Shown here one piece after another: positions 1 to 38,749 of a DNA stretch of 64,000 nt (position 1 is its first letter; every line of letters starts with the position of its first letter). Below the pieces are notes generated by a model. It did no database searches. It had not been told where the DNA came from and saw nothing but the letters and a program-made list of their open reading frames with translations. Source of the stretch: Yuukianura sp. NJ FZ-2021 (Eukaryota); contig CM102287.1 of NCBI GenBank assembly GCA_046563655.1, forward strand, positions 6,758,001 through 6,822,000, given 5' to 3'. Position numbers and translations under genes: made by a program.

Positions 1-1926
1 ATGCAGACAGAAAGTGGGAAATGACAACTAAGAGAAAAATTGAGCAATTGGAAATGACCGGTAGAAGGTCAGTTGGCCCAAGGTGACCTCTTAAAAGGTC
101 AAAGTCAATAAGACAATCAAAGATTCAGTGGCCACGAACAGGTAGGATGGGCATGGCAAGTTTCATTTGACCTTGCTTATTAACACAACTCAGTAACCAC
201 AACCACTTTCACTGGCCGATTCCCACACAGTGAATCCGGTTTCAATTGCAATTTTGTATTTGACAGTGCTGGATTATTCAACTTCGCTGTTCATTATTGG
301 CTCTGAAGCAATCAAAAACCATTTATCAATTCATCCTTTTCCTTACACTTGAAGGTCGATCGTTGCCAAATGACACTAAAGGTCAAGGGTGTGGAGACAG
401 AGTGTGACCTTCACCAAATTGGCACTCGGCAGAAATGCATGGGAAATCGATCGAATTGAATAATCAAATAGAGCTGTAATCAGGAAGACAAGAATTTAAA
501 GGATTCTAATTTCAGCTGAAATTGGTCAATTTATTATTAACAAAGGTCAGGTCAATAATTTCCAAAGGTCAAGGACAAGGAGTGTCTTTCTCAAATTCTA
601 TTCAGATTCAGAATGAATCCGATGTTTCTGTTGGATTCTGCATATCAGAAGATTCGAAATCAAAAGAAACTATTCTTTCTCCAGCAACAAAAGAATTCTT
701 TTTGCTTTGACTGTACCACCGCTGAAGAACATCAAAACATTCGAGGAGCACAAAGGACCCACTTCCAAGGTTCTGGAAGGCCTCACACCTCGGCTATTCT
801 CAAACACTTTTCATCCCACAAGATCCAAGGGCCATTGTGGGGAGCCCTTGATCTCCCTCCACAATCTCCCTATTTTTACTTCCACCGAAGCAGAGGCATA
901 AACAATTTCTAAATTGCGATCCTCGGGAACATTTCAAAACTAGATTGAACACGAGAGCAGCCGAGGAAGTTGCTGACTTGGAATGGAAGTGGCTGGAACC
1001 GCGACTTCCTTTTGGTTTCCGAAGTGATTTCGGTGTTGAACGAGGTTGAGGGCAACCCAATAGCAAGGAAATCCCAACAATCCACAAATACAATGTGAAT
1101 CCACATTGTTAAACTTACTGTTTATGCTAAGGTCTTCAACATAGGTGAAACATGAGGATCATTTTGAACAATCGTTCTGTTGTGAAGTTCATGAAAATGA
1201 GGCCAGTGAAGCAACAAACTGCTTCTTACTCGCACCGTTCCCATCCTAATCCTCAACTGAAGCTTTGAAATTCAATCGACCAAACAACTAAAAAATTGGG
1301 ATATTTCAAAATAAGCGTCTCACAACAAAGAATTCAAAAAAGAGGCAGTAAAAGTGAATGGAAATTGAAACGGAAGCTGCAGAATGCGGCCATTTATTGA
1401 CTGATGCCGCAGATGGTTTCGTTGTTATTTATTTTCCCAGATTGAATTCCTCCCATTTTTCTTTTGCTTTCACTTTGCAATTCATGAAGTTTTTTACTCG
1501 GGAACTCATATGCCTTTTACAAGAGTTTTACGATTTCTGTTTGATTGCAGAGAACAGCAGTTATTTTGCAATATCAAATTAAGTCTATTCCTTCGAGTAA
1601 TTTCGAAGCATATTTGAAACTCCTTCAAGAAAACAAAGAACGCAAAAGAATTTGTGTAATAAAATTCATATTTGAAACAAAAGCGTCTGAACATACTGAA
1701 ATTGAAATATTTCTATGTTCACTGGTTGCTTGGTCTGCGAATAACTTCGGTTGTTGCAGAAGTGATTCCATATTTCAGAATGTGAGTAATTCCCATGCAC
1801 ATAATTTCCTGATGTGACAGTTTTATTCCTGCTGTTTCCTCGTTCCTGAATTTACGTCCAGAATAAACATGTCAGTGGCTCGTAGTGTGTCAAGTGTGTT
1901 GTAAACGCCGACATAAACTAGGTCAC
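1..1926 (+). repeat. Arm A of a large inverted duplication (partner 15510-17433); probably continues beyond the window start
   Basis: Base 1 atgcagacagaaagtgggaaatga is the reverse complement of 17410-17433, and 1887-1926 mirrors 15510-15550. ORF pairs are duplicated on opposite strands (707/16551, 613/16612, 1358/15838). Confidence 0.95.
66..571. promoter_or_regulatory. Cluster of AGGTCA nuclear-receptor half-sites (candidate enhancer)
   Basis: Nine exact AGGTCA/TGACCT hits at 66, 84, 96, 168, 380, 405, 544, 549 and 566. Function is inferred from the motif only. Confidence 0.4.
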
Positions 1927-4900
1927 TTCTGAGGCGTGTGAGAAACACATTCACGAAAAGATGAAAAGTGACCAACTGATTTCGGGAGACAGAAGAGGTC
2001 AAATTGCTATTCACAGCTGGAGCTGCAGTTTATATTTATATTTATTTTAGTTTTCATTTTTGTGTTAAATTGAAACAAAGGAATGAAAATGTGTTTGACC
2101 TGCTTGAGGTCAAGTGTCAAATCACATAAAAACCACATTTCAATTGTAAACGACCCATTTAGAGAGAAAGTAACTTTCACCTTTCATCATGTGGTTACCA
2201 TTTCGGCTGGCACTAGTAGCTGTTTAACTGCGTTATTAATATCTGTTATGGCCTCGTAAAATTTAACTCCATGCAGGCCTTACACAAATTTCAACACATA
2301 AAGCAAACTCGAGTTAAGTAGTGCTAGGATCTTAACTTGATTTTACTTACCCTGAAGATAATTTATATTCTTTCGAACCTTGATTTCAAAATCTCAAAAT
2401 TTATTTGATATATTTTGGAAAATCGTTCAGAAAAGACAAACTATGTTCGAAAGGTATGATTTTGGGTTCTGAAATTTCTTGTGATATCAGCGTATGATTT
2501 TCTGTGTTCAGTAGTTCTCCTGTTGCATTGAGATTCATGTGAGACGCTTAATGTGATACCAAGGGACCTCATGAGTCCCACCGAAGGAGCCAGTCCCACT
2601 TCGTGAGTAAAATAAAACATTGGATGATTTTGAAGAAGCCCTTGAAGCAGAAACAGAAGCATAGAATTTCCCATTTCTTCTGCTGAAGTGATCATCTGAA
2701 GTCCTTTGATTATGGTGAGATCCAATGTGACTGATCCACTTCCACGCAATTTCTGAAATAATACATCCAGCAATAAGTTGGAATTGAGCCCAGGGTAGCA
2801 ACAGAATATCAAATACCGTAACAGTAGTAACAAAATCTACTAGAGCAAACGAAGTTAACAGTAATTCGTTGTAAAGTTATGTAAAAATGGAGTTCTTTCT
2901 TTTAAAGTAGCCGTTTTGTCATTCTGGCTCAAAACTTTTAAAATAATTTGAAAATGGTGCGTGCAAAGAAACTTTTTCAAAATTGGAGTGCTGCTTCCTG
3001 AATTGGATTTTGAGCTCCAGAAGTGTTGTTACAAGTGATATTCTACTTGACGTGACATTTTTATTATTTCACCCTCTGTGGAAGTGGGGGTGTTGTGCTG
3101 ACGCTTCGTGTTTGAGCAAGGGGTGAATGCAACATGCACTTTGTTACTAACCCATTGTTGTGACCTTTCAACAAAAACACAACAATCAAACCAAAGCGTC
3201 AAAATTTCAAACAGAAGAATCAACAGGAAGCGTACTAGTTTACCAAATGCTTTCAAATGAACCTTAAAAACTGAAGCTTTTTCAATATTGAACAGCACTG
3301 TACATCATTTTAACATGCTTATACGGCAACAAATTTCTTTGATTTTGGTTATCTTCTTCAAGATGTAATCCACTGTCAACCGTTTTTGTTTAAATTCTGT
3401 CCGTGACGAATTCATAATTGTACCAAAATTTGGCTTTACTTTCTCTTTCTCGGATTCGTCGCTGGAGTGAAGCTGAAGTTTTGTGTTAGTAATTCACCCG
3501 GGGAAAAGGAAACTGGACGAGGAAGTATGCGGTTGATGAATGGTCACGCAAGGGACGGAAACCCCAAAGTCACGCTCCCTTAACACAAACAAACCACGCA
3601 CAACCCAGTCACAATTCATTAAAGGTCACTCCAACACACACATACAAGTCAGTTATCGCAATTTCTTCTTTTTTTCAACTTTTTTTTCTGCTGCATTTCC
3701 AAAGCCAACAAGCCACATTCCCTCAGCATTCGGAACAACTAAAAAGTACAAAAATCCTTAGGAATCGAGTGGAGATTTATGCCATGACAGATTGACTTTG
3801 GAGAGAGATGCATCTTGTTGTTGATGCAGGATGCAGGTAGAAGTTGCGGAATTTCGTAATTGATGAAGTTGATGAAGATTCGTTTTCCCCAGTCCCTGTG
3901 TATGTGTGCCCTTCCACTGGATCCTATTGTTTTCATATTCATTTCCTAATTCAGATTCCACAGGAGTAGGGTGGCTGGAGTCTATTAAATTCAAAGTCTA
4001 TTCCAAATGCATATTTCATCGTCCTTTCATCAGGCCAAAGAACTCGAAGTGCTATTTAATTAAGCCCTTCGTTAGAATTCGCCACAGAGGGGCATGTCTA
4101 GTGACAATTGAGAGAGAGAAAGTTACAGCGACATTGGCAGAACGGAGAAGGCATTCGGTTGGAATTGGAAAGTGACATGAGAGAGGACGACGAGCTTGGA
4201 CAGTGAGTGTGCTTAGTTTACTTTTTGATGCGTTTCAAAATAATCAACCAAATTGAATTCCTTCGTAACTTTATTCGTTTGTTAGCCACAACTTCGGTTT
4301 GTTAATTAACAAGATTGATGCATGGACAGGTAGAAATTTGATCAAAAAATGAGTAGGAAGCATGCCAATTCCAAATAACTTTTAGTCATTCACGAGTAAT
4401 ACCCGTTACTCATCTCTTTATTACCGCGACTGTAAATAAAAGAAATTTGCGCAAAAAATTTAAAAATGCCAATTTTTTGAAAAAAAAAAAAGAGATTCTC
4501 TCTCTATCTGCAACAGAAATTCTGCACCGATTCAGCTTCCGGGTAGGATTTGGAGGTTTTTAAAATAAACTGAATGCGTAGCAATAATAATTTTGAAACT
4601 GTCGTCAACCTTTAGTGAGTCTTAAGTGATGGAAATGGTGTAAGCGTTGTTAGGTGTGAACCACTTAATCAAGTCACCTGTCAAAATGACACCATGTCAC
4701 GCACTTCACCTTACTCACTCAGCTTTTAGCTTGATCCTTGTCTTCATGTACATTTCCATCGCGTCAGCTCGTTGCAGTGCAAAAACACTACAAAAAGTAC
4801 TTTGAACTTGGGCAAAGTCAAGTGACTTTATTCAACACACGCCACTTCCAGCACCCTTGCAAGCAATATTTACCTAGCGACAAAGTTTTCCATACATCAA

Positions 4901-8900: not shown

Positions 8901-11674
8901 CAAGGAGAAAGTCATAGTACAAACCCATCAAATGACGACTTCAAAGAAAATTTTTTCACCCATTTCTAGTTGAAAGTTGAAACCTCCGAGAAAACTAGTG
9001 TTTGGTTTCGAAATCACGTGAAGCCAGGTACACTTTGTTCATGGGTTAGTGGAAAGTGTATTTTTTTAAAGTATGCTTGTTTGTTTGTCTGTTTTTTTTT
9101 GCTTTAACAATTGCAATTCTATTGTTTTCCTTTTTTGTACAAAATAAAACTGGAGTAATTGTATATAATCTTCCAGAAATTACAAATATCCGTTCTACTC
9201 AACAAAGTTCCAGAAAATGGATCATTTCCAGATCTCAAAAGTTGATCTGACTCTTCCCAGTGTAATTTCCCTTTCAACATGAACCTCGTACTGCCAGGTA
9301 CACGCAAGTAATTGGCACATCGGTCTAAGAGCCCCCCTCCTTCCTGCCTCTATAATTTACAAAAGTAAACAAGATTATATAACATTTGAGTCTTTTTTAA
9401 AACGGGAAAATTCTAGAAAAACCTGTGCTTGTACTTGTATTTTCTGGAGGGCTTAATCCGAACACTTAAGTACCCCCATCACCCCTTGCCAAAAGCCCTT
9501 AAATGTTCAATAGTACAGAACAAACTAAAGCAATTTATGGAGTAAGTAGCTCAAAGGCAGGAGCAGGAGTGGAAAAATATTTCGATTCCATTATCCGAAG
9601 ATGTTCAAATTGTTTTCTCCTGTTTTTCATCTTGACTAAAAGTCAGAAAAATGGAAAAACCTGGAACAGCAGAAAAAGTTACGGAATTGGAAAAATTCGG
9701 AGTTGGATTCATTCCAAAAACTTACCGGAAAACGGAATTGAGCCTCGCCTTTCCGTTCTTCCAACTCAACATACAATTTCATATTTTTTGCCAAAATTGT
9801 TATTTCTTATCAAGTACTATACATGGGAAGTTTATTTTCATCCAGAAAATTTTCCAATTTGCCACATCCACTCACTCAAAGTCTTTCTAAAACTACTTTC
9901 AACCTACAGTGTTATCTTCCTCTTTTCCGCTTTTCAAAAGTTTCTGTTTTCTAAAAAACGAAAGTGTAGCCAATTTTACAATTTTCCTATCCATTTCCTA
10001 ATCAAAATTGAAACAACTTCCACCAAAAAGGTTCTCAAAATAACTTTTCAAAAAAAAGTGGTCCAAAATTGCTTACACCAAAGATTAGACGGGAGATTCG
10101 GAACTTTTTGCTTTCACTTTTTTTGGAGATAGACAATTCCACATGGGAGAATAGCCTTATTTGTCTTGTAACTTTCCCTTTAATCTTGTTACTTATGTTA
10201 CTCTGTTACAACTTGGTTACTACAATGTTACAACGTTACTTGTGCCATAACATAAAAAGTGAGTTATGGGTGCTGATAGTTGCTAAAATTTCTTGTTATC
10301 GTTGGACCCTAGGAATTGGTTTCTGGATTGACTCATCTAACAGCCCCCAAGTGAAAGTTCTAATCAAGATACCAACCACTTTGTCTTACGAAAGATGCTT
10401 TCCCTTTCATAAATTCCTTTTCCCTTGTGCTTTGTCATAAGGTTGAAGTAAACCAGACAACCACCACTATAAGCACGAACCAAACACAGGATTATGTTTC
10501 AAAAGTACCTAAATTTTATTTAAAAAAAAAATAAAATAAACAACACAACATTCAAAATATTTTTTTCAAGTTTGTAGAGTTACTTTTGGATTTTCAAAAT
10601 TCGAGTTATGGTAATGTTAGCGTGATTGCGGAAGTGCGATGAATACTTCCTTGTCTGTGATCGTGATCAATGGAGAAAGTCTTTCGCTTCCACTTCAACT
10701 GAAATTCTGTTTACTTCCTTCCATGAACTCGTCTCTGATTGGTTAACATTGTTTATGAATCGATTGTGACTGGGGAAAGTGAACAGGAAATTTCACCGCT
10801 TCTTGGTTTCTCTTTTCTGTGAAAGCAATGAACCAAGACAAGAGATAACGATGGAACAAATCAAGGCCATTATTCCATAAGGAGAGACGAATGATTCACA
10901 AAATATTCGAAATTTGATGCAATGTGTCTCTCTCCCCCAATTTCTGATTTTGGACAGAAACAAATGCCGATTGAAAATTCAATTCTGAAATCAGTCTTCC
11001 GGACTTCTTTTTTTTCCTGGAGAATCACTGGTGTATTCCTAAATTTAATTTCTGTGAGGGAGACATGTTAAAATTCAGGTAACGTTTACCAAAATTGGTG
11101 ACTCGGTGTGCGTAGGTGGGATTCGTTGTGGTGGGTCTCGGTGGGGCAGGTGGCTTCCGTGGAAATTGGTCAATTACGAAAATGTTGAAGTTAGAAATGA
11201 AGTTGTAGCTATTAATAAACCTAGAAATTGGTTCACTTGATCTGACAGTTGATGAAGAGGGGGCGTGAGAGACTTCGGTATTTGAAATCCAAACAGTTGG
11301 AATTGTTGATCCAAGGAATTCGTGGAGAGTCTGTTGATTCAACCCCCACTTGGGGGTGAGTAGCTTCAGAGACTAAATGCTTCCAGGTAGGATTTACATT
11401 TAGATCGTCTGTTTTGTTTATTCAGAACAGCACTTCCAAGCATTTTCAAAATAACAGTTTAGTTATTTTAAAACCGTCGTGGGACAAGTCTTGGAAAAGC
11501 CAATGCTTCAACCTCACTGAAAGTAAAATTCAGGATTTTGCTGAAAAAAATTCTACGTATATTTTCAAAATTGACTTCGAAACGCATCATAGGATTGTAA
11601 GGTTCACCGAATACAATTCACCTTCAAATTGTTGGAATGACTTGGCTCGTCAACATTGTCCAGCGTAGATTATT

Positions 11675-12340
11675 ATTCAACTTTAAAAGAAGCGTTTGAG
11701 ATGCTCATCAATCATTTTCATATGGACCGATGAAAGAATGAGAGAATGAGACACTTTCAAAAAGTTTCTAAATTGCTGTGATTCCGGCAGTGACGGAGTC
11801 TGACACCTATAATCCTATGACACTCCTGCGCAAAAACGCTGAGCGTACATTGTTCCACGGTATTTCCAAAAATTGAAAGCGATTCAAAAGGAGGGCGGGA
11901 AACATTCATTGTGCTGCGACATTTGAGAAAGTTGCTTCTGAGTCAGCGACTGACTAAAAGTGTGAATTAACAAAAGAATTGCAGTGAGGCCAAAGTAATT
12001 AATCACAACAGTTAACCTCCTTCTAAAGCCACATTCAAAATTCTTTTGTGGAAGTAAACGAGGGATGATGCAATTGGGATTAGAACAACATTCGAAGTTA
12101 AACTGAAGTCTTTTCAAGCCAACTGCAATGCAGAGTCACAAGCAAAACAATTACAACAAAAGATGTGAGAGAGATTTTTCCTAAAGTCATCTTTAACTTG
12201 AAGTAACTAAACACTCATGTCGTTGGCATTTGACTAATAAGGATTTTAGCAAGTCGCTTGAGACGTGACATGACGAAATAATTCTCGAAATCTGATCTCA
12301 AAAATCGAGGACAACACTAAGACGCTGACGTCTGTTTTTG
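11675..12340 (+). repeat. Arm C of a second inverted duplication (partner ~30310-31048)
   Basis: gtaaacgagggatgatgcaattgggattagaacaacattcgaagttaaactgaagtcttttcaagccaactgcaatgcagagtcacaagcaaaacaat (12054-12151) is the reverse complement of ~30553-30650. The flanks are progressively more diverged. Confidence 0.9.
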
Positions 12341-14504: not shown

Positions 14505-17433
14505 CGCCTGATTTTGGAGGCGTAGCGACTTCAGCAACAAATGATGAGAGCACGACACTTTGCTTGACATCGAGACTTTATCACTTTTCATTTTTGACTT
14601 AAAAACCAACGCCTTTTTATACATACGTTTTAACTCAAATGTCAACACAGACAAGTCAATCCATTTTCAACACGCCATTTATCCACATCAACATATTTCA
14701 AAACGACTTCATAAGATGATTCCATATTCTTAGGTACGCATGGGAAAAATGACATGTACAATTTAAAGTTTTGACAAAAATGAGGAGAATGAGGTCGCAG
14801 GATTCTGAATATTGATGTGATGGCTTTGGTTCTTGGCAAGAAGAAAGTTGAAAATTGAGCTAAAATTGCAAAATTTCCTTTCAGCTTTTCGCAATTAATT
14901 TTTAACCAACTTTTCTTTTCCCTCCACAAATTTCCTTTACCTCAGCACTGCTTTTGTGGCTCGCTTGAGTAGAATTTGAAATGAGTACATTTTGGGTAAA
15001 ATTTTGGACGCTTTAGTTGTATTTTGCGTATGTACCGAAGAGAAACTTATTGCCATTGGACTGGCGTGAATTATTAATCCCCCTTCAGTTCCTGCTTTAA
15101 TTACATTTTGTTTCCTCAGAAGGAGCACGGGAGAAAGCTGCAGAAAGCAAGAATTTCTTGCTTGCCAGTATTGCCACAATTACGTACTAAAGTGATTTTT
15201 AGCGCCAAAAATAACAACCCTGGCAAGAAAGTTCAACGTATGTTTTCAAATGTTTTTAATTGCGTTTAACGCTAAAGCCAAATTCTAAGAGCTCAGTTGG
15301 AGGTTACAGGCTATGCTTACTTTATGATAAAGATTTGAATGACCTTGAGTTACGCTTGGACCCCATCAGTATCCCAACTCTCAAAGCATTTCCCCAGGGT
15401 ATTCAAATGATTTTAAATAGTAATTAATCACTAGGTGTTTCTGACTTACAACTGGAAAACTACTATTTACTACAACAAAGTTAACGCGATTGTCGTGAGC
15501 CTGACTCGCGTGACCCAGTTTATGCCGGCGTTTAAAATACACTTGACACACTATGTCTACTGACATGTTTACAGAAATTCTGTATTCTGGGCGTAAATTA
15601 AGGAACAAGGAAACTGAAACAATAAAACTGTCACATCAGGAAATTATGTCCATGAGAATTACTCATATTCTGAGGTACGGAGGATTCATTCTGCAAAATT
15701 CAAAAAACATTTGCAAAGAAATCACTTACTTAGTCAACAGAAAAATATTTCAATTTCTATACGCCGAGACGTTTTTGTTTCAAACATGATTTTATTACAC
15801 AAATTCTTGTGAATTCTTCATTTGATCGAAGAAGTTTCTATATTTTAAACTTACGGGAAGGAAAGGACTTAATTTGAAATGGCAAAATGTTCAATAACTT
15901 CTCTTTTCTGCAATCACGTAGAAATCGTAAAACTCCTGTAGAAAACATGAGTGCCCGAATAAAGGAATTCATGAATTGCAAAGTGAAAGCAAAAGAAAGA
16001 TCGGAGGAATTCAATCTGGGAAAATAAATAACAACGAAACCATCTGCGGCATCAGTCAATAAATGGCCGCATTCTGCAGCTTCCGTTTCACTTTTCATTC
16101 ACTTTTACTGCCTTTTTCTTTGAATTCTTTGTTGTGAGACGCTTATTTTGAAATATCCCAATTTTTTAGTTGTTTGGTCGATTGAATTTCAAAGCTTCAG
16201 TTGAGGACTAGAATGGCAACAGTGCGAGTAAGAAGCAGTTTGTTGCTTCACTGGCCTCATTTTCATGGACTTCACAACAGAACGATTGTTCAAAATGATC
16301 CTCATGTTTCACCTATGTTGAAGGCCTTAAGTATAAACCGTAAGTTAACAATGTGGATTCACATTGTATTTGTGGATTGTTGGGATTTCCTTGGTGTTCC
16401 CCTCAACCTCGTTCAACACCGAAATCACTTCGGAAACCAAAAGGAAGCCGAGGTTCCAGCCACTTCCATTCCAAGTCAGCAACTTCCTCGGTTGCTCTCG
16501 TGTTCAATTTGGTTTTGAAATGTTCCTGAGGATCGCAATTTAGAAATTGTTTATGCCTCTACTTCGGTGGAAGTAAAAATAGGGAGATTGTGGAGGGAGA
16601 TCAAGGGCTCCTCACAATGGCCCTTGGATCTTGCGGGATGAAAAGTGTTTGAGAATAGCCGAGGTGTGAGGCCTTCCAGAACCTTGGAAGTGGGTCCTTT
16701 GTGCTTCTTGAATGTTTTGATGTTCTTCAGCGGTGGTACAGTCAAAGCAAAAAGAATTCTTTTGTTGCTGGAGAAAGAATAGTTTCTTTTGATTTCGAAT
16801 CTTCCGATATGCAGAATCCAACAGAAACATCGGAAGCAGTCTGAATAGAATTTCAGAAAAAAACTCCTTGTTCTTGACCTTTGGAAATTATTGACTTAAC
16901 CTTTGTTAATAATAAATTGACCAATTTCAGCTGAAATTACAATGCTTTAAATTCGTGTCTTCCTGATTACCGCTCTATTTGATTATTCAATTTCGATCGA
17001 TTTCCAATGCATTTCCTTCTGCGGAGTGTCAATTGGACAAGGCAAGACTGTCTCCACAACCTTTGCTATCATTGGCCAACGTCCTACCCTTCACGTTTGA
17101 CAGGAAGAATAAATTGATTGATGGCATTTGATTTCTTCAGAGACAATATTGACCCGCATAGTTAGTTGAAGGTCAAATGGAAATTGCCGAAAAAAATATC
17201 ATTCGTAGCGGTGAAAGTGTCCTTTTAAATTGACTCTGTTGAATAATTGATCAAGGTCCAACGGTACCTGCCACAATGTCCGTCCATCCTACCTGTTCGT
17301 GGCCACTGAATCTTTGATTGTCTCGTTGACTTTGACCTTTCATGAGGTCACCTTGGGCCAACTGACCTTCTACCAATCATTTTCAATTGCTCAATTCCAA
17401 TGTGATTCTTCATTTCCCACTTTCTGTCTGCAT
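14505..17433 (-). repeat. Inverted copy B'+A' of 1-1926 and 5100-5955
   Basis: A largely contiguous reverse-complement match. The ~3.2 kb between A and B has no visible counterpart here. Confidence 0.9.
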
Positions 17434-30309: not shown

Positions 30310-31048
30310 AACAAAAGATGAAATGGTCGTCTTCCAAAAATTTCTTTTGGGATCAAATTTCAACGATTTCATCACATTTCACTCACATCCTCCGAGTCAG
30401 TTTACATGTACGTGCTAAAATCCACAATTACTAGTCACCGACACCACCACCAACGGCAACAGCAGCATCTAACCTAGCCCTGAAATGAAGAGATGTTACT
30501 TACAATCCAAGAATGACTTTGGAAAAAATCTTCCTAGAATTCTTTTGTTCTTATTGTTTTGCTTGTGACTCTGCATTGCAGTTGGCTTGAAAAGACTTCA
30601 GTTTAACTTCGAATGTTGTTCTAATCCCAATTGCATCATCCCTCGTTTACTTGCACAAAGGAATTTTGAATGTGGCTTGAGAAGGAGGTTATGTGGTTGT
30701 ATATGTTGTGATTTGTGATTAATTACTACAGCCCTTTTTCAATTCACACTTTCAGTCAGTCGCTGACTCAGAAGCAACTTTTTTTGAAATGCCGCACGAC
30801 AATGCTAGTTACCCGCCCTCCTTTTGAATCGCTTTCAATCTTTGGAAATTCCTTGGAAGGATGGACGTTTGAGCATTTCTGCGCAAGAGTGTCACAACTT
30901 TGTACTTGACGTTCCGTCGCCAGCTTCCGTCACACTGGCAATCTCTGGAACTGGAAGTCAAAACTTTTGCAAAGTGTGTCTCATTCTTTGATCGTTTCAA
31001 TAGGAAATGATTGATGAGAATCTTCGCACTTCTTTTAAAGTTGAAAGG
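30310..31048 (-). repeat. Inverted copy C' of 11675-12340
   Basis: See arm C. The peptide IHTFSQSLTQKQL is shared by ORFs 11884(-) and 30715(+). Confidence 0.9.
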
Positions 31049-33260
31049 ACTCACTTTTTAGTAGAAGCAGAAAGTTATTTTGCATGAAAGAAAAAAGTTG
31101 AACAACACTTAACTTTATGGCTTCATTTTTCAAAAAGTCCAGTTGAGCGACATGACAGCGTCTCCGAAATTTTCGCAACTTTTCAAAATTAGGAAAGCTT
31201 TCAATGTAGGCTCAACGAATAAAAAAAAGATACTTCTTATTTTTTTTTTGCTTCACTAAAAGCTACAATGCGTCAGTAAGTGTTTACTTATACTAACTTA
31301 CGTTGTTGCAATTTTAAACCGAAGTGGTTTAATTTGAGTGCAAGCATTTCAAGCGCCATCTTTCACTCATAAGCTTCATCAAGCCTGCAGTCCGATTAAT
31401 TTCCCTTGTTTTGTTATGAGTACTGGGAATAAAATTAAAAATTAATTAACTTTCATTTATAAATATTTCAACTAAAAGTGAAAGTTTGATGAAAAGATTA
31501 TTGTTAGATTAAAAACTGTTTTTAGAGAAAATTAATTTATTGTGATGCATTTTTCGTGTTGAAGAAGGGTTGAAATTTTCGATTTCAGGCGTCTAGGGGT
31601 CAGTTGTGCTTCCGTTTGTTAACTGCTAAATAATTTTCTAAGCATCTGCTTCTCCTCACACGTCAGGAGCTTGTTGAGGCACGACTTATTGTGAAATTCT
31701 GCTGTACTTCGAAGTTGTTACTAGGAAATGCTGTTCTGAATAAACAAAACAGACCATCTAAATGCAAATCCTACCTGGCAGCATTTAGTTTGCAAGCTAG
31801 GATAGTTACGAACACTTCCAAGTAGGGGTTGCATAAACAAAGTTAGGGTAGACAGTGAGAGGGGTCGAGGGGGCCCTGGAAGGGGTCTCAGGACTGATTT
31901 GCTTCCATCACTACTATCTGACATTTCGCTTCATTGCTTCAGAAGAAAAGAGAAGAGATGGAATGGAAGTTCCAGGTTGCTTTCAGCGTCCATTTTCGAA
32001 ATTTCGAAAGTAACGATACGGAATCAAACTTTTCTTTTGGATAAGTTTGAAGAAGCCTGGAAGGATGGTGAAGATCCAGAAAAACTTGAAACCGTCAAAG
32101 AAGAAAGTCATGCTTTTCCCCTTTGTTCATTCAATCACAATAGGAAATGGACTCTAGTTGTAGCCTCCAGACTTTCCACTTTTACCAAAAAAAGAAAAAT
32201 TTAGAACAAGCTATTCAAGACTTTGGACAAGAAAAAAAACTTCGGAACTTTGACAAATGGATCTTTCTTTCGCCTTTTTTTTCGCCAACAGCACTCCACA
32301 ATTTTCTTTTTTGAAAATTTTAAAAACTTTTTTCTTTCTCAAAATTTTCCAGGATCTCATCATTTGTGATTGTGCAAAGCCCATTCTTTAGTCTGGATTT
32401 TTTTCCCTCGATAACCCAAATCCATCCGAAAGTTGAAAGCTTCTGTTGTACCCTGAAGCTAAATTTGATTCACTTAATTCTTGATTTTTACGAACAAAGA
32501 TATTTCGAGGCAGAATAAAAGTTGTCCAAACAAAATGAAACTTTAAAATACGATGTTTCAATTCAAAGTTCTGTATGAAATCAAAACTTTTTCTTTACGG
32601 TTCACTTTTCATCATTGTTATTACTCAAAAACATTTTTTATTTTATTTTAGGTTTTCATAGTTTAATTTGTCAGAATACCTTTTCAGAATACCTAACTTT
32701 TTGCGAACTCACCATTGGGTATTCACAAATAGTGTTATCAGCTTTGGTGGGTTCCGGACGTAAACTGATGAACATTTCAGAATTCGCCATCACGGCAATT
32801 CCATAGTTAATTACATTTGGGTTTTCAGTTGATAGATTATGTGTGGACAACTGAACCAAAAATGGAATACCCAATGAAAGCAACGCACATTGCGTTGATG
32901 CGTACTAATCACTCATTCTTATTCTTAATGTCATATACAATCTCATATTCTTATGTGTAGTGTAGTATGAATGTGAATTCTGAATTTCAGGCCGGACGTA
33001 AATTCCATGTTGAATGTACAACATTTCCCAAAATCCGTCTCGAACTCGATAGAACGAAGTGACTTGACTGGAGAATTTGTGATGGCTAAAAGCATTTTAA
33101 AATAGGTGTATAAATGCTACTACGTGCGTTGATTTAAACGATAAGCTGAAATTATAATTGAGATCATAAGGAGCAGGCATTTACTACTATTGGCTTAATA
33201 GAAATTAATTGTGAAACTAAATAACTACTAAAAATACAAATTTTAGGGTCGTATTTAACG

Positions 33261-35445
33261 CTAAGTAAGAAGTATGATGCTAAAAAATATCAGCATGCAG
33301 TTCAACCCTACCAGGACCTTCAAATTAGCTGAAAGAATGACTTCCTTGAAGGAACGCGAAGTGGTTTTAGCGTGGTGACATAGTTCCACTGCGATCACGC
33401 TAATGTAAATGATGTCTGTTGACATAAACAGAAGATCCCGGAGTACTTGATGTAGTCTTCCTTTACCCAAAAGCACATTCGAAACGAACTGGTCCCAGCT
33501 TGCTAGAAAGATGTGAAACAGCGCGATGTTGGCGATAACCAGGAGAGGCAGAGGTTGAAGGTTTTTTCTCTTGTCCAAGTAGTTGAGCACAAGAAGTGTA
33601 GTCACAAGTTCTGATACGGTAAAGAAGAGTTGGTGGTACCACTGCGAGAAGAAGTCATCGTTGTAGTAATTGATGGTTCCCCACCAAGCGTAGTAGTTAG
33701 AAAAGATGGAAACGACGAATATGAATGCCATGGACCATCGAAGTTTTCGTTGAAGGAGTAGGTTCACCACTACCTTACAGGATTTGTACAGCGAAACCAC
33801 TCCTATTACAGTGATTGCCCAGATTTTGGAAGTCGTCCAGGTAGAATTGAAGTACATATGCTTGAATCGTATACCCCCCCCCCCCCTGGCCAGTCGAGTT
33901 AGTTCCTAGTCCAACAGGTGATTCATATGGACCTAAAAGATAAGATTCATTCAATTAACCTGTATTCTATTAGCATGGATGTGATCATCCGTAAGGTGGC
34001 AGTTTGTCTTACCTTTGAATACAGTATCCCAGCAAGTGCAGCTACAATTTTGCCGGTCGACGGGAAGTTTGGAGCTGCTCCACATGACGTAGAAGATCAT
34101 CATATGCAACGACGGTAGAATTATTGGGAGCAAAGTTCCTATAACGGTTGGCAGTAGAGGGATTCAATAGAGAATGGGAAAAAACCGAAACCAACCACAA
34201 ACCTCGAAAAACTAAAACCAACCCAAAGCTAAACAGAAGTTGAAGCTCGGATTCAATTGGAAACTTGAGTTCAGCTTCTCTCGGTTTGGGTTTCCAAGCT
34301 GAAACTGAGCCGATCGTCTCAAACCTATACCTCCTTACAAAAGCAAGTTGGGGCGGGAAAAATTTTGAATTGAAATTTCAAATTGAAATTGTGTTTACCT
34401 AATCAGCTAACTTTTACAAAACTAAACTTTATAACTTTTTTACATTCCATATCAAGTCAATTAGTTCCCATCTCACTACTTTCAACTTTTGAGACAAGGA
34501 ATAGGCACTGACCACTAAGGCGCTGACCTCTTCCTTGCTTCATATGATGGATTCGATTAATTGTACTTGCTTTTATGAATTTGCTTTTATTATAACGAAT
34601 GTTACCAGTTATGAACTAACTTTCATTCCATTCCATACCAATTATACCAATTAAGTTTGTTAAGGGCAATTACGTTTAATGTTTATTCTGGGAATCAGTT
34701 AAAGAACCACCGGATGGTCAGAGCCATGAAAATGGTCAGCGCCTCCGGTGAGTCCACATCATTTGGCATACCCGGAGAACGCTTAAGACATAAAACGACT
34801 TACTGTTAGCAGAAATCTAAGCGTAATGTGCAAATAACATGATTAGGTTAATGCAGATCTCATTTTAATAGTATAGTTACTCCCTCCACTGCATAAAACT
34901 AGGGTGTTTCTCTATTCCGAACTGGGAGCTCACGCCATGACTTTAATGTCACAATCACTGCACAATTAGTGTTGTTGGGTATGGTGTTAGACTTTACAAC
35001 TTTTGTAATCTATCGGACTACTGTGCTGACCACTTATTACGGCGCTGACAGTAGTCCAAACAGTGATAATTAGTAATTAGTAATGCCGAAGTAATGGGTA
35101 AACCCGTTCCAAGCCTGGTCCGGACCTGGATTGCAAAAGCTTGGTTTCGGCAACCTTTTAGCTTACTCCAAAAGTCTATTGAATAACCCGATTCAATAGA
35201 CCTCGAGTTTTCTCCTGTTTGGCTCGGTTTCCTCTCACTTTCTGGTTGGCTTGGGGTTGGCTTGAGCAAAAAATTTTTGGATTGCATAGGTTTCGGCTAG
35301 CAATCCGGTTTGAAGACAAGCTCAAGCCAAACTCCATTCTCTATTGAATCCACCTACTGAGATACGTTTCTATCTGGTAGCAGCTGAATGTCGACTTGGA
35401 ATGTCTTGGCTTCGAATATGTAACAACTGCACCCTCTTGTGGCAT
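33261..35445 (-). CDS. Uncharacterised multi-pass membrane protein (~294 aa), 3 coding exons; apparent +1 frameshift in a G13 run
   Basis: Exons 35445-35358 (MPQEGAVV..IETYL), 34138-34013 (TLLPIILPSLHMMIFYVMW..NCSCTCWDTVFKG) and 33932-33261 (PYESPVG..FKHMYFNSTWTT..YYAWWGTINYYNDDFFSQWYHQLFFTVSEL..). Introns are GTAGGT..TTATAG and GTAAGA..TTTTAG, both phase 1. The 198-aa ORF has several hydrophobic segments. The frame closes only if the C run at 33874-33886 is 12 rather than 13. Exons 2-3 are solid; exon 1 is less certain. Confidence 0.8.
34152..35359. mobile_element. Non-autonomous TIR DNA transposon (CAG-starting, hAT-like ends) forming intron 1 of the membrane-protein gene
   Basis: 26-bp TIRs: cagtagagggattcaatagagaatgg (34152-34177) and ccattctctattgaatccacctactg (35334-35359), 2 mismatches. 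Subterminal aaaccgaaacc/ggtttcgg-type motifs. No transposase ORF and no clean TSD seen. Confidence 0.8.
34503..34744. mobile_element. Degenerate nested inverted-repeat element inside the 34152-35359 element
   Basis: aggcactgacc..aggcgctgacc on the left mirrors ggtcagagcc..ggtcagcgcct on the right. Confidence 0.4.
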
Positions 35446-35460
35446 TATATCGGCCCTGAC

Positions 35461-35594
35461 GCGAGAACCCTTTCAGCACCGCAGCACCGCACATTACGAG
35501 ACGTAAGTTAGGTTTGTCCAGGTTAGGTTAGGTTAGGACAACCATAACATACGCTCCGAAAAGTGCGGTGCTGCGGCGCTGAAAGGGTTTTCCC
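35461..35594. mobile_element. Mutator-like MITE with 9-bp TSD and TTAGG-repeat core
   Basis: TSD ggccctgac at 35452-35460 and 35595-35603. Inverted arms gcgagaaccctttcagcaccgcagcaccgcac / gtgcggtgctgcggcgctgaaagggttttccc. The loop contains ggttaggttaggttagg. Confidence 0.85.
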
Positions 35595-36189
35595 GGCCCT
35601 GACCCTGACTAAAAGTTTGACGGGTTATCTGAAATTACTGTCTGAAGTGACGTAGCTTGGCCCAGGAGCTTGGGAAATGACCTGAAACGACAAAAACAAT
35701 TTTCCCGTTAACTCTTTCCTCGTTTAGACTGCTGGAAAATGCTGGGAAGTCACTGGGAAAAGAAGTAAACCTCTTTATTCTGTTATCTGAAGTTGGACCT
35801 ACTATTCCACTGAATCGTCTGAAGTGACCATAGTTTTGGGTAGTGGGAATGTGGGAAACGAATTTTTTCGGCGATACGAGTTAAATTCCTGAGTTTGAAC
35901 GTTGGAAAAGCTCTGAAGTTGAGTTTACTTTTTCTGCGGGGTGGATTGGGGCAAGTTCCAAGGTTGTTCACAATAGAAATTTGAATTTCTATAAGATAAT
36001 GAAGATAATAAGAATTGTGTTCTATGTCACCGCTCTGAAGGCGCGCGTTAGGTTATTCAAATATAGCTATAATGATCAGGTTTATCAAAAATGATCAAGA
36101 TTTTCGACGTTTTCATGTTTGGAACATTTGCTGTTGCGATCATTTTACTTCGGATCAATTCACTTTTCCACTTTTTATATTGTGATCTT

Positions 36190-36265
36190 TTTACATTGCG
36201 ACGATTTCACTTGCGAGCTTTTTACCTGCGACCTTATTATTTGCGACCAACTTATTTTGACCATA
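36190..36265. repeat. Degenerate ~15-bp tandem repeat (ttgcgac core), probably a MITE arm remnant
   Basis: ttacattgcgacg / ttcacttgcgagc / ttacctgcgacc / tatttgcgacc / tattttgacc in succession. Confidence 0.5.
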
Positions 36266-36288
36266 TTACGTGCTACGTGACCAGCAGG

Positions 36289-36362
36289 CGGACAGAAAGA
36301 CAGACACACAGACAGAGTCGGAGACAAACACAAAGTAGCTCATACTTTCGCTACTTAATAAA
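36289..36362 (-). mobile_element. DINE-1/Helentron-like element end (GACA microsatellite + conserved terminus)
   Basis: ttcgctacttaataa is the reverse complement of the ttattaagtagcgaa terminus at 43234. The adjacent (gaca)n-like tract is ggacagaaagacagacacacagacag. Confidence 0.55.
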
Positions 36363-37137: not shown

Positions 37138-37666
37138 GTAGGTGCTCATTCATTTAATCCGCATAAAATTAGAACAGCATGATGCGATGCACGAGGAATT
37201 AATCAAGAAACAGATGTCTGCAGAAATTAAAGTCACATCAAAGTCCCCTATCACCTTCCTCGCTTCGCCAAAAACCTTTTACTCTACCCACATGCTATGT
37301 ATACGACAACTACACTTTACCTATATTCTGTATACCTAGTGTTTACTAAAACTGAGCAAGAGGAAATGAAGGCTAGGAAAATCCGTCGTCTCCCTCAAAG
37401 TCTCACTCTCACTGTGTGTTCTGTTTTGTGATCGGGCAGTCATCGAGTCATCCTCATCATTTAGATTTAGAACATCGAACATTATTATTACAATCAGCTG
37501 ATCAAATCAAAACACTAAAGTTTGTGTTCCGTTTTTGCAGTACACGGAACTTACACAGGAGAGAGCAATATTAATTGACCTTAATTTAACGGTTGGAGCA
37601 ATTCGTATTTTATTAACTTGTGAACTTGGATTATCGGTACCGTCAACGTGTATGGGTAGGTGCATT

Positions 37667-38388
37667 AGCTTGTTTCAAATAAGGCGATTATAATCCATTT
37701 TAGATTAATCTACGGTTGCGCGGTTACTCCAGCCCGATTATTTTCCCGATTATAATCGCCCAAAAAAGAATCCACAAAAAGGAGGATTCTTGCAGATTAA
37801 TCTGAAATTCCAAGTTTAGAAAACCATGCGACGAGACAGGGAAAGCCATCGAGCGGTCACGTAAAGTCATCTAGCGGTCAGAGAAAGTTATCTAGCGGTC
37901 ATAGAAAGACATCGAGCGATCGGAGAAAGTCATCGAGCGGTTGGTGAAAGTCATCGAGCGGACGGAGAAAGTTAGCGAATGGTAAGAGAAAATCATTCAC
38001 CGTTCAGAGAGCTTCACCTAGCGGTCGGTGAAAGTCATCTAGCGGTCATAGAAAGTCATCGAGCGGTTGGAGAAAGCTACGCACATTCCAACATTTCATT
38101 TATGGAGTGCTCCCTAATCGTCACTCTGACAGTTTTTTCACTTCCGCTCGATGACTTTCTCCGTCCGCTCGATGACTTTCACCAACCGCTCGATGACGTT
38201 CTCCAGCCGCTAGATAACTTTCTCTGACCTCTCCTCAACGTTCTCCGACCGCTTGATGAATGTCCAATCCTTCTCGCCTGTTGTCATTTTCGCAGCTGGA
38301 TTAATCTGCAAAAATATTCGGGCTGGAGTAACCGCGCAACCGTAGATTAATCTAAAATGGATTATAATCGCCTTATTTGAAACAAGCT
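37667..38388. mobile_element. MITE with ~70-bp perfect TIRs and an internal inverted 21-bp minisatellite
   Basis: agcttgtttcaaataaggcgattataatccattttagattaatctacggttgcgcggttactccagcccga matches its reverse complement at ~38318-38388. It is flanked by ATT on both sides (or TA if trimmed by 1 nt). Internal gaaagtcatcgagcggtc-type units at ~37841-38075, with reversed copies at ~38143-38260. Confidence 0.9.
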
Positions 38389-38749
38389 ATTGACTTCTGT
38401 ACTGAACACTGAATCTTTTTTTGTAGTTTTTAAGTTATAATTTTTTGAAAACAATTGTGTTGTCTGTCATGTTGAAGGCTCTGTGTTATCTATAAGCATG
38501 GGATATGTTAAGTACTATTGCAAGTGAAGTATGTAAACGCTAACAGTAACACCTCATTTGTGTGTAAATTAAAGGTTGATGTCCCGCAGTTCAAACTGGG
38601 ATCTTTACTGAATTTTCGGAGACGGGGATACGAAGAAACATCGAAATTCTTCAAACTCTCTAACAGGGCTCGCTGGTTTCATCGCTGGAACTGGAAACGT
38701 AACAATAGACTTTGCAGCGTAGAAGGGTCCAAACAAAAGCAAAAGTGCA

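What the first reader, a model, noticed from the sequence alone, without database searches (positions are those of the whole stretch)
34139..35359. Transposon-made intron (introner-like): the TIR supplies the splice donor
Seen: intron 1 (35357-34139, - strand) coincides almost exactly with a TIR element. Its donor GTAGGT lies inside one TIR. The only two differences between the TIRs (cagtagGTgg vs cagtagAGgg) are donor positions +5/+6 and improve the consensus. The other TIR gives a pyrimidine-rich tract, and the acceptor AG is 13 nt outside the element. Those 13 nt (CCA ACC GTT ATA G) read P-T-V-I-G in frame with exon 2, as if they were former exon. Splicing restores the frame (..ETYL-R-TLLP..). 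Established: introner DNA transposons create introns by carrying one splice site and co-opting the other. Inference: a recent intron gain rescuing an exonic insertion at the cost of ~4 residues.
Basis: partly seen in the sequence, partly recalled or inferred. Interest (0 to 1): 0.75.

Follow-up and report, generated by a model that had tools for sequence, protein, structure and literature searches.

The report
Young transposon insertion, possible new intron
A 1.2-kb mobile element sits inside the first coding exon of an arthropod membrane-protein gene in this assembly but is missing from the same spot in other sequenced samples of the species, and its ends carry signals that could let it be spliced out as a brand-new intron, which has not been tested.

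Summary
A 1,208-bp element (34152-35359) with 26-nt terminal inverted repeats (24/26) interrupts a coding exon on the - strand. A GT (35357) lies 2 nt inside one repeat. The other repeat is pyrimidine-rich, and the first AG after it (34140-34139) is 13 nt outside the element.

Contigs of four public DNA runs from two studies hold the same locus without the element. Rebuilt from them, the site is one open 78-codon exon reading ..ETYLRLLPTVIGTLLP... The element is multi-copy (about 10-30x flank depth in one sample).

- Splicing at 35358|34138 would stay in frame but remove 7 residues (LLPTVIG), not about 4. All 10 homologues compared keep these residues in their first membrane helix.
- There is no target-site duplication. 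Nine of the 10 replaced host bases equal the element's own tips.
- A second, out-of-frame GT lies at 35353.

Not shown:
- Splicing, because no RNA run was listed.
- That other copies form introns.
- That the two repeat differences were selected.

The same haplotype also has a frame-breaking G13 run in exon 3. Verdict: a candidate nascent transposon-made intron, with a plain null allele as the main rival.

The parts
34152..35359 (-). Non-autonomous TIR element, 1,208 bp, 39.6% GC, no ORF longer than 92 aa. Its subterminal regions also pair with each other.
   Evidence: Contig depth over it is 10-30x that of the flanks in runs X1, X3 and X4. Five X1 contigs with unlike flanks start matching exactly at 34152.
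35334..35359 (-). 5' TIR in gene orientation (CAGTAGGTGG...). It holds the proposed splice donor.
34152..34177 (+). 3' TIR in gene orientation (CAGTAGAGGG... on the + strand). Read on the - strand it ends a tract with 26 pyrimidines in 33 nt.
35352..35357 (-). Proposed donor GTAGGT (context TCA|GTAGGT). A competing out-of-frame GT is at 35353-35352 (TAG|GTGGAT).
   Evidence: No RNA evidence.
34139..34140 (-). Proposed acceptor AG, the first AG after a 63-nt AG-free stretch (34203-34141).
   Evidence: No RNA evidence.
34139..34151 (-). 13 nt of former exon (CCAACCGTTATAG) that would become intronic.
   Evidence: The stretch is contiguous with exon 1 in the contigs that lack the element. It is in frame there.
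35358..35445 (-). Coding exon 1 as split by the insertion (ATG at 35445-35443, 88 nt).
   Evidence: Read-through into the element stops after 34 codons.
34013..34138 (-). Exon 2 of the insertion allele. It is the 3' part of the ancestral first coding exon and ends in phase 1 before GTAAGA.
   Evidence: It aligns with the homologues' ..CWDTVFK motif.
33933..34012 (-). Ordinary 80-nt intron (GTAAGA...TTTTAG). It is present in the DNA contig that lacks the element, so that contig is genomic and not cDNA.
   Evidence: X2 record 10 spans 33874-34157.
33261..33932 (-). Last exon. It encodes the conserved body of an uncharacterised, arthropod-dominated membrane-protein family (stop TAG 33263-33261).
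33874..33886 (-). G13 homopolymer inside exon 3. It shifts the frame between GPYES.. and ..RFKHMYFNS; 12 or 15 G would keep the frame.
   Evidence: Whether it is an assembly error is unresolved.
35451..35603 (-). Neighbouring 133-bp MITE (35461-35593) with a perfect 10-bp target-site duplication GTCAGGGCCG, 5 bp upstream of the ATG. It is also absent in some contigs.
   Evidence: Joint 35450->35594 with 10 letters fitting both sides.

Best explanation
A young, still-polymorphic insertion of a 1,208-bp non-autonomous TIR DNA element split the first coding exon of a conserved arthropod membrane-protein gene. Ancestrally this was one 78-codon exon.

Shown: the element is multi-copy. The same locus exists without it in other samples. 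The empty site is an open frame whose residues match homologues.

Inferred: the insertion allele is rescued, at least partly, by splicing. U1 would use the GT 2 nt inside the 5' TIR (TCA|GTAGGT). The 3' TIR and its subterminal T-run would serve as the polypyrimidine tract. The first AG downstream, 13 nt into former exon, would be the acceptor. That removes 1,219 nt and yields an in-frame mRNA lacking 7 codons (LLPTVIG) at the start of the first membrane helix.

I put about 0.9 on the insertion and empty-site part. I put about 0.5 on the claim that a useful fraction of transcripts is spliced this way. The confidence given is for the whole statement.
For: TIRs and uniqueness in the window.

Empty-site contigs: the joint 34156->35357 with 'AT' between appears in X1 (2 contigs), X3 (1 contig) and X4 (2 contigs). 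The joint 34157->35357 with 'T' between appears in X2 (1 contig, depth 18.5 against flank depth of about 22). The X2 contig has 1 other letter over 33874-34157 and includes the 80-nt intron 2, so it is genomic DNA of the same species.

Frames: the rebuilt empty site is a continuous 234-nt ORF, and the spliced form is a 213-nt ORF.

Homologues: LLPTVIG aligns without gaps to first-helix residues in 10 of 10 homologues (for example SLLPILAG), so the empty form is ancestral and not an excision scar.

Multi-copy status: depth is 1,300-4,400 over the element against about 140-280 in the flanks in X1. Several contigs have 0-4 differences per roughly 200 nt.

Splice signals.

Precedent: element-borne plus co-opted splice sites, with gain or loss of neighbouring codons, are described for introners (PMC9860276, passages read).
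Against: There is no RNA evidence of any kind.

The donor is mediocre (A at -1, G at +4). A second GT 4 nt downstream (TAG|GTGGAT) would give an out-of-frame product.

The 7 lost residues are kept in 10 of 10 homologues, so the spliced product may be impaired.

The same haplotype has a frame-breaking G13 run in exon 3.

At 35401 all 8 laid contigs (4 runs) carry G where the window has A. So I saw no read-derived contig of the window's own occupied junction, and the occupied state rests on the assembly alone.

The element lacks a target-site duplication, which is atypical for transposase-mediated insertion.
Confidence: 0.5

Rival explanations
1. Plain loss-of-function allele. The element landed in a coding exon of one haplotype. 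Transcripts read through to a stop after 34 codons or are mis-spliced and degraded. The allele persists only because intact (empty-site) alleles are present. The GT...AG arrangement and the preserved frame are coincidence.
For: Empty-site forms dominate what could be seen in 4 of 4 runs. Read-through stops after 34 codons. The carrier haplotype also has a G13 frameshift in exon 3, and another polymorphic MITE lies 5 bp upstream of the ATG. The donor is weak and has an out-of-frame competitor. A preserved frame has a prior of 1 in 3.
Against: The combination is more than one coincidence: a GT within 2 nt of the element's tip, a pyrimidine tract with 26 of 33 pyrimidines, a 63-nt AG-free zone, then an AG that restores the frame. 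The G13 run may be a homopolymer error of the assembly.
Confidence: 0.35
2. Member of a specialised introner family. The element family is adapted to create introns, so many of its copies genome-wide coincide with introns of unrelated genes and use the same TIR-borne donor.
For: It is multi-copy, TIR-bearing and non-autonomous. The donor lies in the TIR. Introner families with TIRs but no TSD, and families that add or delete codons, are described (PMC9860276).
Against: No other copy could be examined for overlap with an intron. No genome is held, there is no further copy in the window, and no true match turned up in metagenome contigs. At 1,208 bp it is longer than the median lengths reported for introner families (30-654 nt, PMC9860276). 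The 3' splice site here is an accident of the host exon, not of a TSD. In the opposite orientation the other TIR reads GTAGAG, a poorer donor.
Confidence: 0.1
3. Assembly artefact. The element was placed at this locus by mis-assembly, and no chromosome carries it there.
For: I saw no read-derived contig of the occupied junction. All 8 contigs laid at 35401 differ from the window there.
Against: The junctions are clean to the base at both TIR tips, with host sequence continuing in frame on both sides. Short unitigs across repeat borders are easily missed, and most laid pieces were not listed (622 not shown). The best holder has only 0.58 of the sampled words, so the source reads are probably not among these runs.
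Confidence: 0.05

Closest known systems
Introners / introner-like elements (Micromonas, Aureococcus, dinoflagellates and others; Gozashti et al. 2022, PMC9860276; review PMC11282704; passages read)
   Same: It is a non-autonomous, multi-copy DNA element with TIRs that lands in an exon. One splice site is carried by the element and the other is recruited from outside it. A small change in codon number is tolerated. Families with TIRs and no TSD are on record.
   Different: Only one copy could be studied, and neither splicing nor family-wide coincidence with introns is shown. The acceptor comes from unrelated exon sequence 13 nt away and not from a TSD, so 7 codons are lost. The element is longer (1,208 bp) than reported family medians. 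The host is an arthropod; among animals the passages I read name only copepods.
Single transposon insertions processed as introns, such as the maize Dissociation element (Giroux et al. [quoted passage not shown] I saw this only as an entry in the reference list and Table 1 of PMC3443670; its details are recalled, not read.
   Same: One exonic insertion of a TIR element whose terminal sequence offers splice signals, giving a near-normal in-frame message. No specialised family is needed.
   Different: That case has transcript evidence and this one has none. Ds insertions have 8-bp TSDs (recalled); this element has none.
Polymorphic 'neointrons' of Daphnia pulex attributed to double-strand-break repair (PMC4202315, passages read; review PMC3443670)
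   Same: An arthropod, a presence/absence polymorphism of an intervening sequence in a coding exon within one species, and junctions that look like end-joining rather than transposase action.
   Different: The term 'transposable element' does not occur in the main text of that paper (0 occurrences). Its neointrons are described with short direct repeats from staggered breaks. Here the inserted DNA is a complete multi-copy TIR element, and the junctions show overlap with the element's tips instead of direct repeats.

Membership tests
Introner family | Multi-copy family of closely similar elements in one genome | tested here: met
   Summed contig depth over 34154-35293 is 1,300-4,400 against about 140-280 in the flanks in X1, and similar in X3 and X4. 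Contigs have 0-4 differences per roughly 200 nt. Five contigs have unlike flanks at 34152. Depth is a rough guide, not a copy number.
Introner family | Many copies coincide with spliceosomal introns of unrelated genes | not testable with these tools
   No whole genome is held. There is no second copy in the window. The metagenome scans gave only chance hits.
Introner family | The element supplies at least one splice site and the other is recruited from the TSD or exon, shown by transcripts | tested here: inconclusive
   The sequence signals are present: GT 2 nt inside the TIR, a pyrimidine tract, and an AG in former exon. No transcript data were available.
Introner family | Absent from the homologous site in other isolates or relatives (recent gain) | tested here: met
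   Contigs with an empty site occur in 4 of 4 laid runs from 2 studies. The empty form is an open frame matching 10 of 10 homologues.
Cut-and-paste (class II) TIR transposon | Terminal inverted repeats | tested here: met
   26 nt, 24/26 identical. Further imperfect subterminal pairing appears in the fold.
Cut-and-paste (class II) TIR transposon | Target-site duplication flanking the TIRs | tested here: not met
   The flanks are ..TATCT and CCAACC... The empty site equals left flank + CAG-A-CTACTG + right flank, so the two shared parts do not overlap and one base is lost. The neighbouring MITE shows a perfect 10-bp TSD by the same test.
Cut-and-paste (class II) TIR transposon | Transposase gene (autonomous copy) | tested here: not met
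   The longest open frame in the element is 92 aa. This copy is at best non-autonomous. No superfamily could be assigned.
Spliceosomal (U2-type) intron | GT...AG borders with a pyrimidine tract, and frame kept after removal | tested here: met
Spliceosomal (U2-type) intron | Exon-exon junction seen in RNA | not testable with these tools
   No RNA material could be laid, and the single calls of both run tools are used.

The most novel reading that the evidence does not exclude
The element was not inserted by a transposase. It was captured whole at a chromosomal double-strand break by microhomology-mediated end joining. The host site CAG-A-CTACTG shares 3 nt with the element's 5' tip and 6 nt with its 3' tip, there is no TSD, and one base is lost. 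In the same step this made a splice-competent intron. That would join the two leading models of intron gain in animals (transposon insertion and break repair) in a single, still-segregating event in an arthropod.
Probability: 0.2. Interest if true: 0.7.

Novelty: new member of a known kind. Interest (0 to 1): 0.45.

Why it matters
Intron gain in animals is rare and is almost always inferred long after the event. Here both states of one locus, occupied and empty, appear to segregate in one species. The ancestral exon sequence is known to the base. The element is intact and belongs to a family that looks recently active.

That makes a direct test possible. Genotype individuals and ask whether the carrier allele is spliced, how efficiently, and at what cost to the protein.

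The junctions, with no duplication and 9 of 10 replaced bases identical to the element's tips, also bear on how such DNA gets into exons. If splicing fails, this is an ordinary deleterious insertion allele and of little interest.

Tried and rejected
(1) My own alternative model. I proposed 35-nt TIRs (repeat finder I2) flanked by a 5-bp duplication ATAGA/ATAGG, with the acceptor AG in the duplicate and a net gain of 4 codons. The empty-site contigs refute it, because they retain CCAACCGTTATAG as host sequence.

(2) The empty form as an excision scar. I rejected this because the 21 nt encode residues that align with the first helix of 10 of 10 homologues, and because the same structure occurs in contigs about 10% diverged from the window.

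(3) The joints as cDNA. I rejected this because the X2 contig with the joint contains intron 2, and the joint is not at the GT/AG.

(4) A TA duplication (Tc1/mariner-like) with the element starting at GGTGG. This predicts CTCAG-TA-CTGCC, which is 2 nt shorter than observed. It also does not fit 5 contigs that start matching at 34152.

(5) RNA evidence. No RNA holder was listed, so nothing can be said about expression.

(6) Other copies of the element:
- The 26-nt TIR pattern gave 0 matches in metagenome contigs.
- The 18-nt core gave 20 loci. None extends the match into the TIR tips or the body of the element. L017 and L019 lie in what looks like a coding region. I treat all 20 as chance hits.

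(7) Whole genome: none is held.

(8) Earlier notes of this scan: 3 look-ups, nothing.

(9) Homologue searches:
- A search for longer relatives of the C-terminal part found none.
- A search with the 42-aa exon-2 peptide for longer proteins found none. So intron positions in close relatives could not be examined.

(10) Pfam: only a sub-threshold Tmemb_18A hit for the protein. Six other long open frames of the window gave no hit, so the organism was not pinned down beyond 'arthropod-like'.

(11) Whether the TIR variant GT or AG is the family consensus: the rows shown do not include those positions, so this stays unresolved.

Full report
WHAT IS THERE

On the - strand the window carries a small gene for an uncharacterised membrane protein.
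- Its last exon (33932-33261) has 31 homologues at E <= 0.001. The named ones are a springtail, a wasp, a cockroach and a copepod.
- The best hit is only 62% identical and unnamed.
- A feature search placed a homologue in clusters of 'hypothetical proteins', mostly arthropod.
- Pfam gives nothing above threshold.

Upstream, a 1,208-bp stretch (35359-34152) is bounded by 26-nt inverted repeats that differ only at positions 7-8, GT against AG.
- The repeat occurs nowhere else in the 64 kb, even with 6 substitutions allowed.
- The element matches only itself in the window.
- It has no open frame above 92 aa.
- Its subterminal parts pair with each other in the RNA fold.

- The GT at 35357 lies 2 nt inside the 5' repeat (TCA|GTAGGT).
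- The 33 nt ending at the 3' tip hold 26 pyrimidines.
- There is no AG between 34203 and 34141.
- The next AG (34140-34139) is 13 nt outside the element.
- Joining 35358 to 34138 gives an open frame..YQIETYLRTLLP...
- Reading through into the element instead meets a stop after 34 codons.

THE DECISIVE RESULT

No whole genome is held. The run search listed five DNA-type runs: four from one sample of 'organism A' and one from 'organism B' in another study.

I laid four of the five runs on 32900-36300 at 85% likeness. All four hold contigs that join the two flanks without the element.
- X1 (2 contigs), X3 (1 contig) and X4 (2 contigs) show 34156->35357 with the letters AT between.
- X2 (1 contig) shows 34157->35357 with T between.

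The X2 contig is allelic genomic DNA, not cDNA or a paralogue.
- It differs from the window by 1 letter over 33874-34157.
- It has the depth of the unique flanks (18.5 against about 22).
- It runs through the ordinary 80-nt intron 2.

In X1, X3 and X4 the listed joint contigs are about 10% diverged (11-12 other letters per 100-134 nt). From the depths, one X1 contig is reference-like over exon 2. So several haplotypes or lineages share the empty state.

Rebuilt in a script from the window plus the reported letters, the empty site is a single open frame of 234 nt from the ATG at 35445 to the end of exon 2. It reads ..YQIETYLRLLPTVIGTLLPIILP... The C/T difference between the two forms is synonymous.

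Aligned with the N-terminal parts of 10 full-length homologues, LLPTVIG falls without a gap on hydrophobic residues of the first membrane helix (for example SLLPILAG). None of the 10 has a gap there. My own competing model (35-nt repeats with a 5-bp duplication, +4 codons) is refuted.

THE ELEMENT IS A REPEAT FAMILY

- Summed contig depth over the element is about 10-30 times that of the flanks in organism A, and about 1-3 times in X2.
- Some contigs differ from this copy by 0-4 letters in roughly 200 nt.
- Five X1 contigs with unrelated preceding sequence (agreement 0.49) begin to match exactly at 34152. This fixes the 3' tip at CAGTAG.
- Depth from contigs is a crude guide, not a copy number.

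WHAT DOES NOT FIT A SIMPLE TRANSPOSITION

There is no target-site duplication. The empty site is left flank + CAG-A-CTACTG + right flank. The occupied site is left flank + CAGTAG...CTACTG + right flank.
- In other words, 10 host bases were replaced by the element, and 9 of them equal the element's own tips (3 at one end, 6 at the other).
- The CTACTG encodes the two leucines that homologues also have, so it is host sequence.
- Chance agreement of 9 bases is about 4 in a million.
- By the same test the MITE 100 bp upstream (35461-35593) shows a textbook 10-bp duplication, and a contig lacks it with exactly 10 letters fitting both sides.

I read the focal junctions as end joining at microhomologies, that is, capture of an element at a break. 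This is an inference from one locus, and a transposase with an odd target rule is not excluded.

WHAT IS NOT SHOWN

- Splicing.
- Donor quality. The donor is middling, and the same two variant bases also create TAG|GTGGAT at 35353, whose use would break the frame.
- Product function. The in-frame product would lack 7 residues that 10 of 10 homologues keep.
- Integrity of the carrier haplotype. It has a G13 run (33886-33874) that breaks the frame between GPYES.. and ..RFKHMYFNS. Twelve or 15 G would keep the frame. I could not tell an assembly error from a real lesion.
- Read support for the occupied state. At 35401 all 8 laid contigs differ from the window, so I saw no read-level confirmation of the occupied junction. 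The best holder has only 0.58 of the sampled words, so the source reads are probably not among these runs.
- Donor selection. The idea that the GT/AG difference was selected to improve the donor cannot be judged without the family consensus. Given the youth of the insertion, I think inheritance from the source copy is more likely.

COMPARISON WITH WHAT IS KNOWN

Introners are multi-copy, mostly DNA-transposon-derived elements that create introns.
- They carry one splice site and recruit the other from the TSD or exon.
- They were found in 175 of 3,325 genomes.
- Some families have TIRs and no TSD, and some cases add or delete codons (PMC9860276, passages; review PMC11282704, passages).

This locus works like that on paper. 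Membership fails or is untested on the defining point, that many copies are introns. The element is also longer than the reported family medians.

A single Ds insertion that became an intron in maize is the closest one-off precedent. I saw it only as a reference in PMC3443670.

Polymorphic neointrons in Daphnia, ascribed to break repair, are the closest population-level precedent in arthropods (PMC4202315, passages).

Supplements of these papers were not consulted. The introner species tables there might list arthropods beyond the copepods named in the text.

VERDICT

'Intron' and 'introner-like' remain hypotheses.

My odds:
- Insertion real and polymorphic: about 0.9.
- Spliced in frame to a useful extent: about 0.5.
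- Plain null allele: about 0.35.
- Specialised introner family: about 0.1.
- Artefact: about 0.05.

If splicing is real, this is a new member of a known kind. Its main value is that both alleles exist, so the matter is directly testable.

Noticed in passing
window 35451-35603: A 133-bp MITE (35461-35593) has 60-nt inverted arms, a loop with three CCTAA units (the complement of TTAGG) and a perfect 10-bp duplication GTCAGGGCCG. It ends 5 bp upstream of the gene's ATG. Some contigs of X1 and X3 lack it (joints 35448-35456 -> 35594-35629).
   Followed up: partly
window 33874-33886: A G13 homopolymer lies inside a stretch of about 13 extra residues (..PVGLGTNSTGQGGGG..) that homologues lack, and it breaks the reading frame of exon 3. 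A diverged haplotype has a base change inside the run (33876). It could be an assembly error or a real lesion; this is unresolved.
   Followed up: partly
window 35421-35450: The X2 contig that lacks the element leaves the window's sequence at 35421 (34 unlike letters). Another X2 contig holds a diverged version of 35422-35450 with a one-base length difference just after the proposed ATG. The 5' end of the coding region may differ between samples.
   Followed up: no
window 35596-35860 and 36092-36300: Contig depth is also raised here, about 3-15x that of the unique flanks in organism A. The gene's upstream region therefore looks repeat-rich beyond the MITE.
   Followed up: no
window 35170-35200: Inside the element, the TIR core motif ATTCAATAG recurs as a close inverted pair (35199 and 35184). 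This suggests extra transposase-binding sites or a nested small element.
   Followed up: no
window 1-1865 vs 15583-17433; 11372-12163 vs 30541-31789: Large inverted duplications, with arms up to 451 nt at 96% identity, lie about 14-20 kb apart. They are probably further repeat families.
   Followed up: no
window 37814-38097: A tandem array of 21-nt units lies next to an inverted copy (38127-38280), flanked by 82-nt inverted arms at 98% identity (37663-37744 / 38311-38392). It is a foldback-like structure.
   Followed up: no
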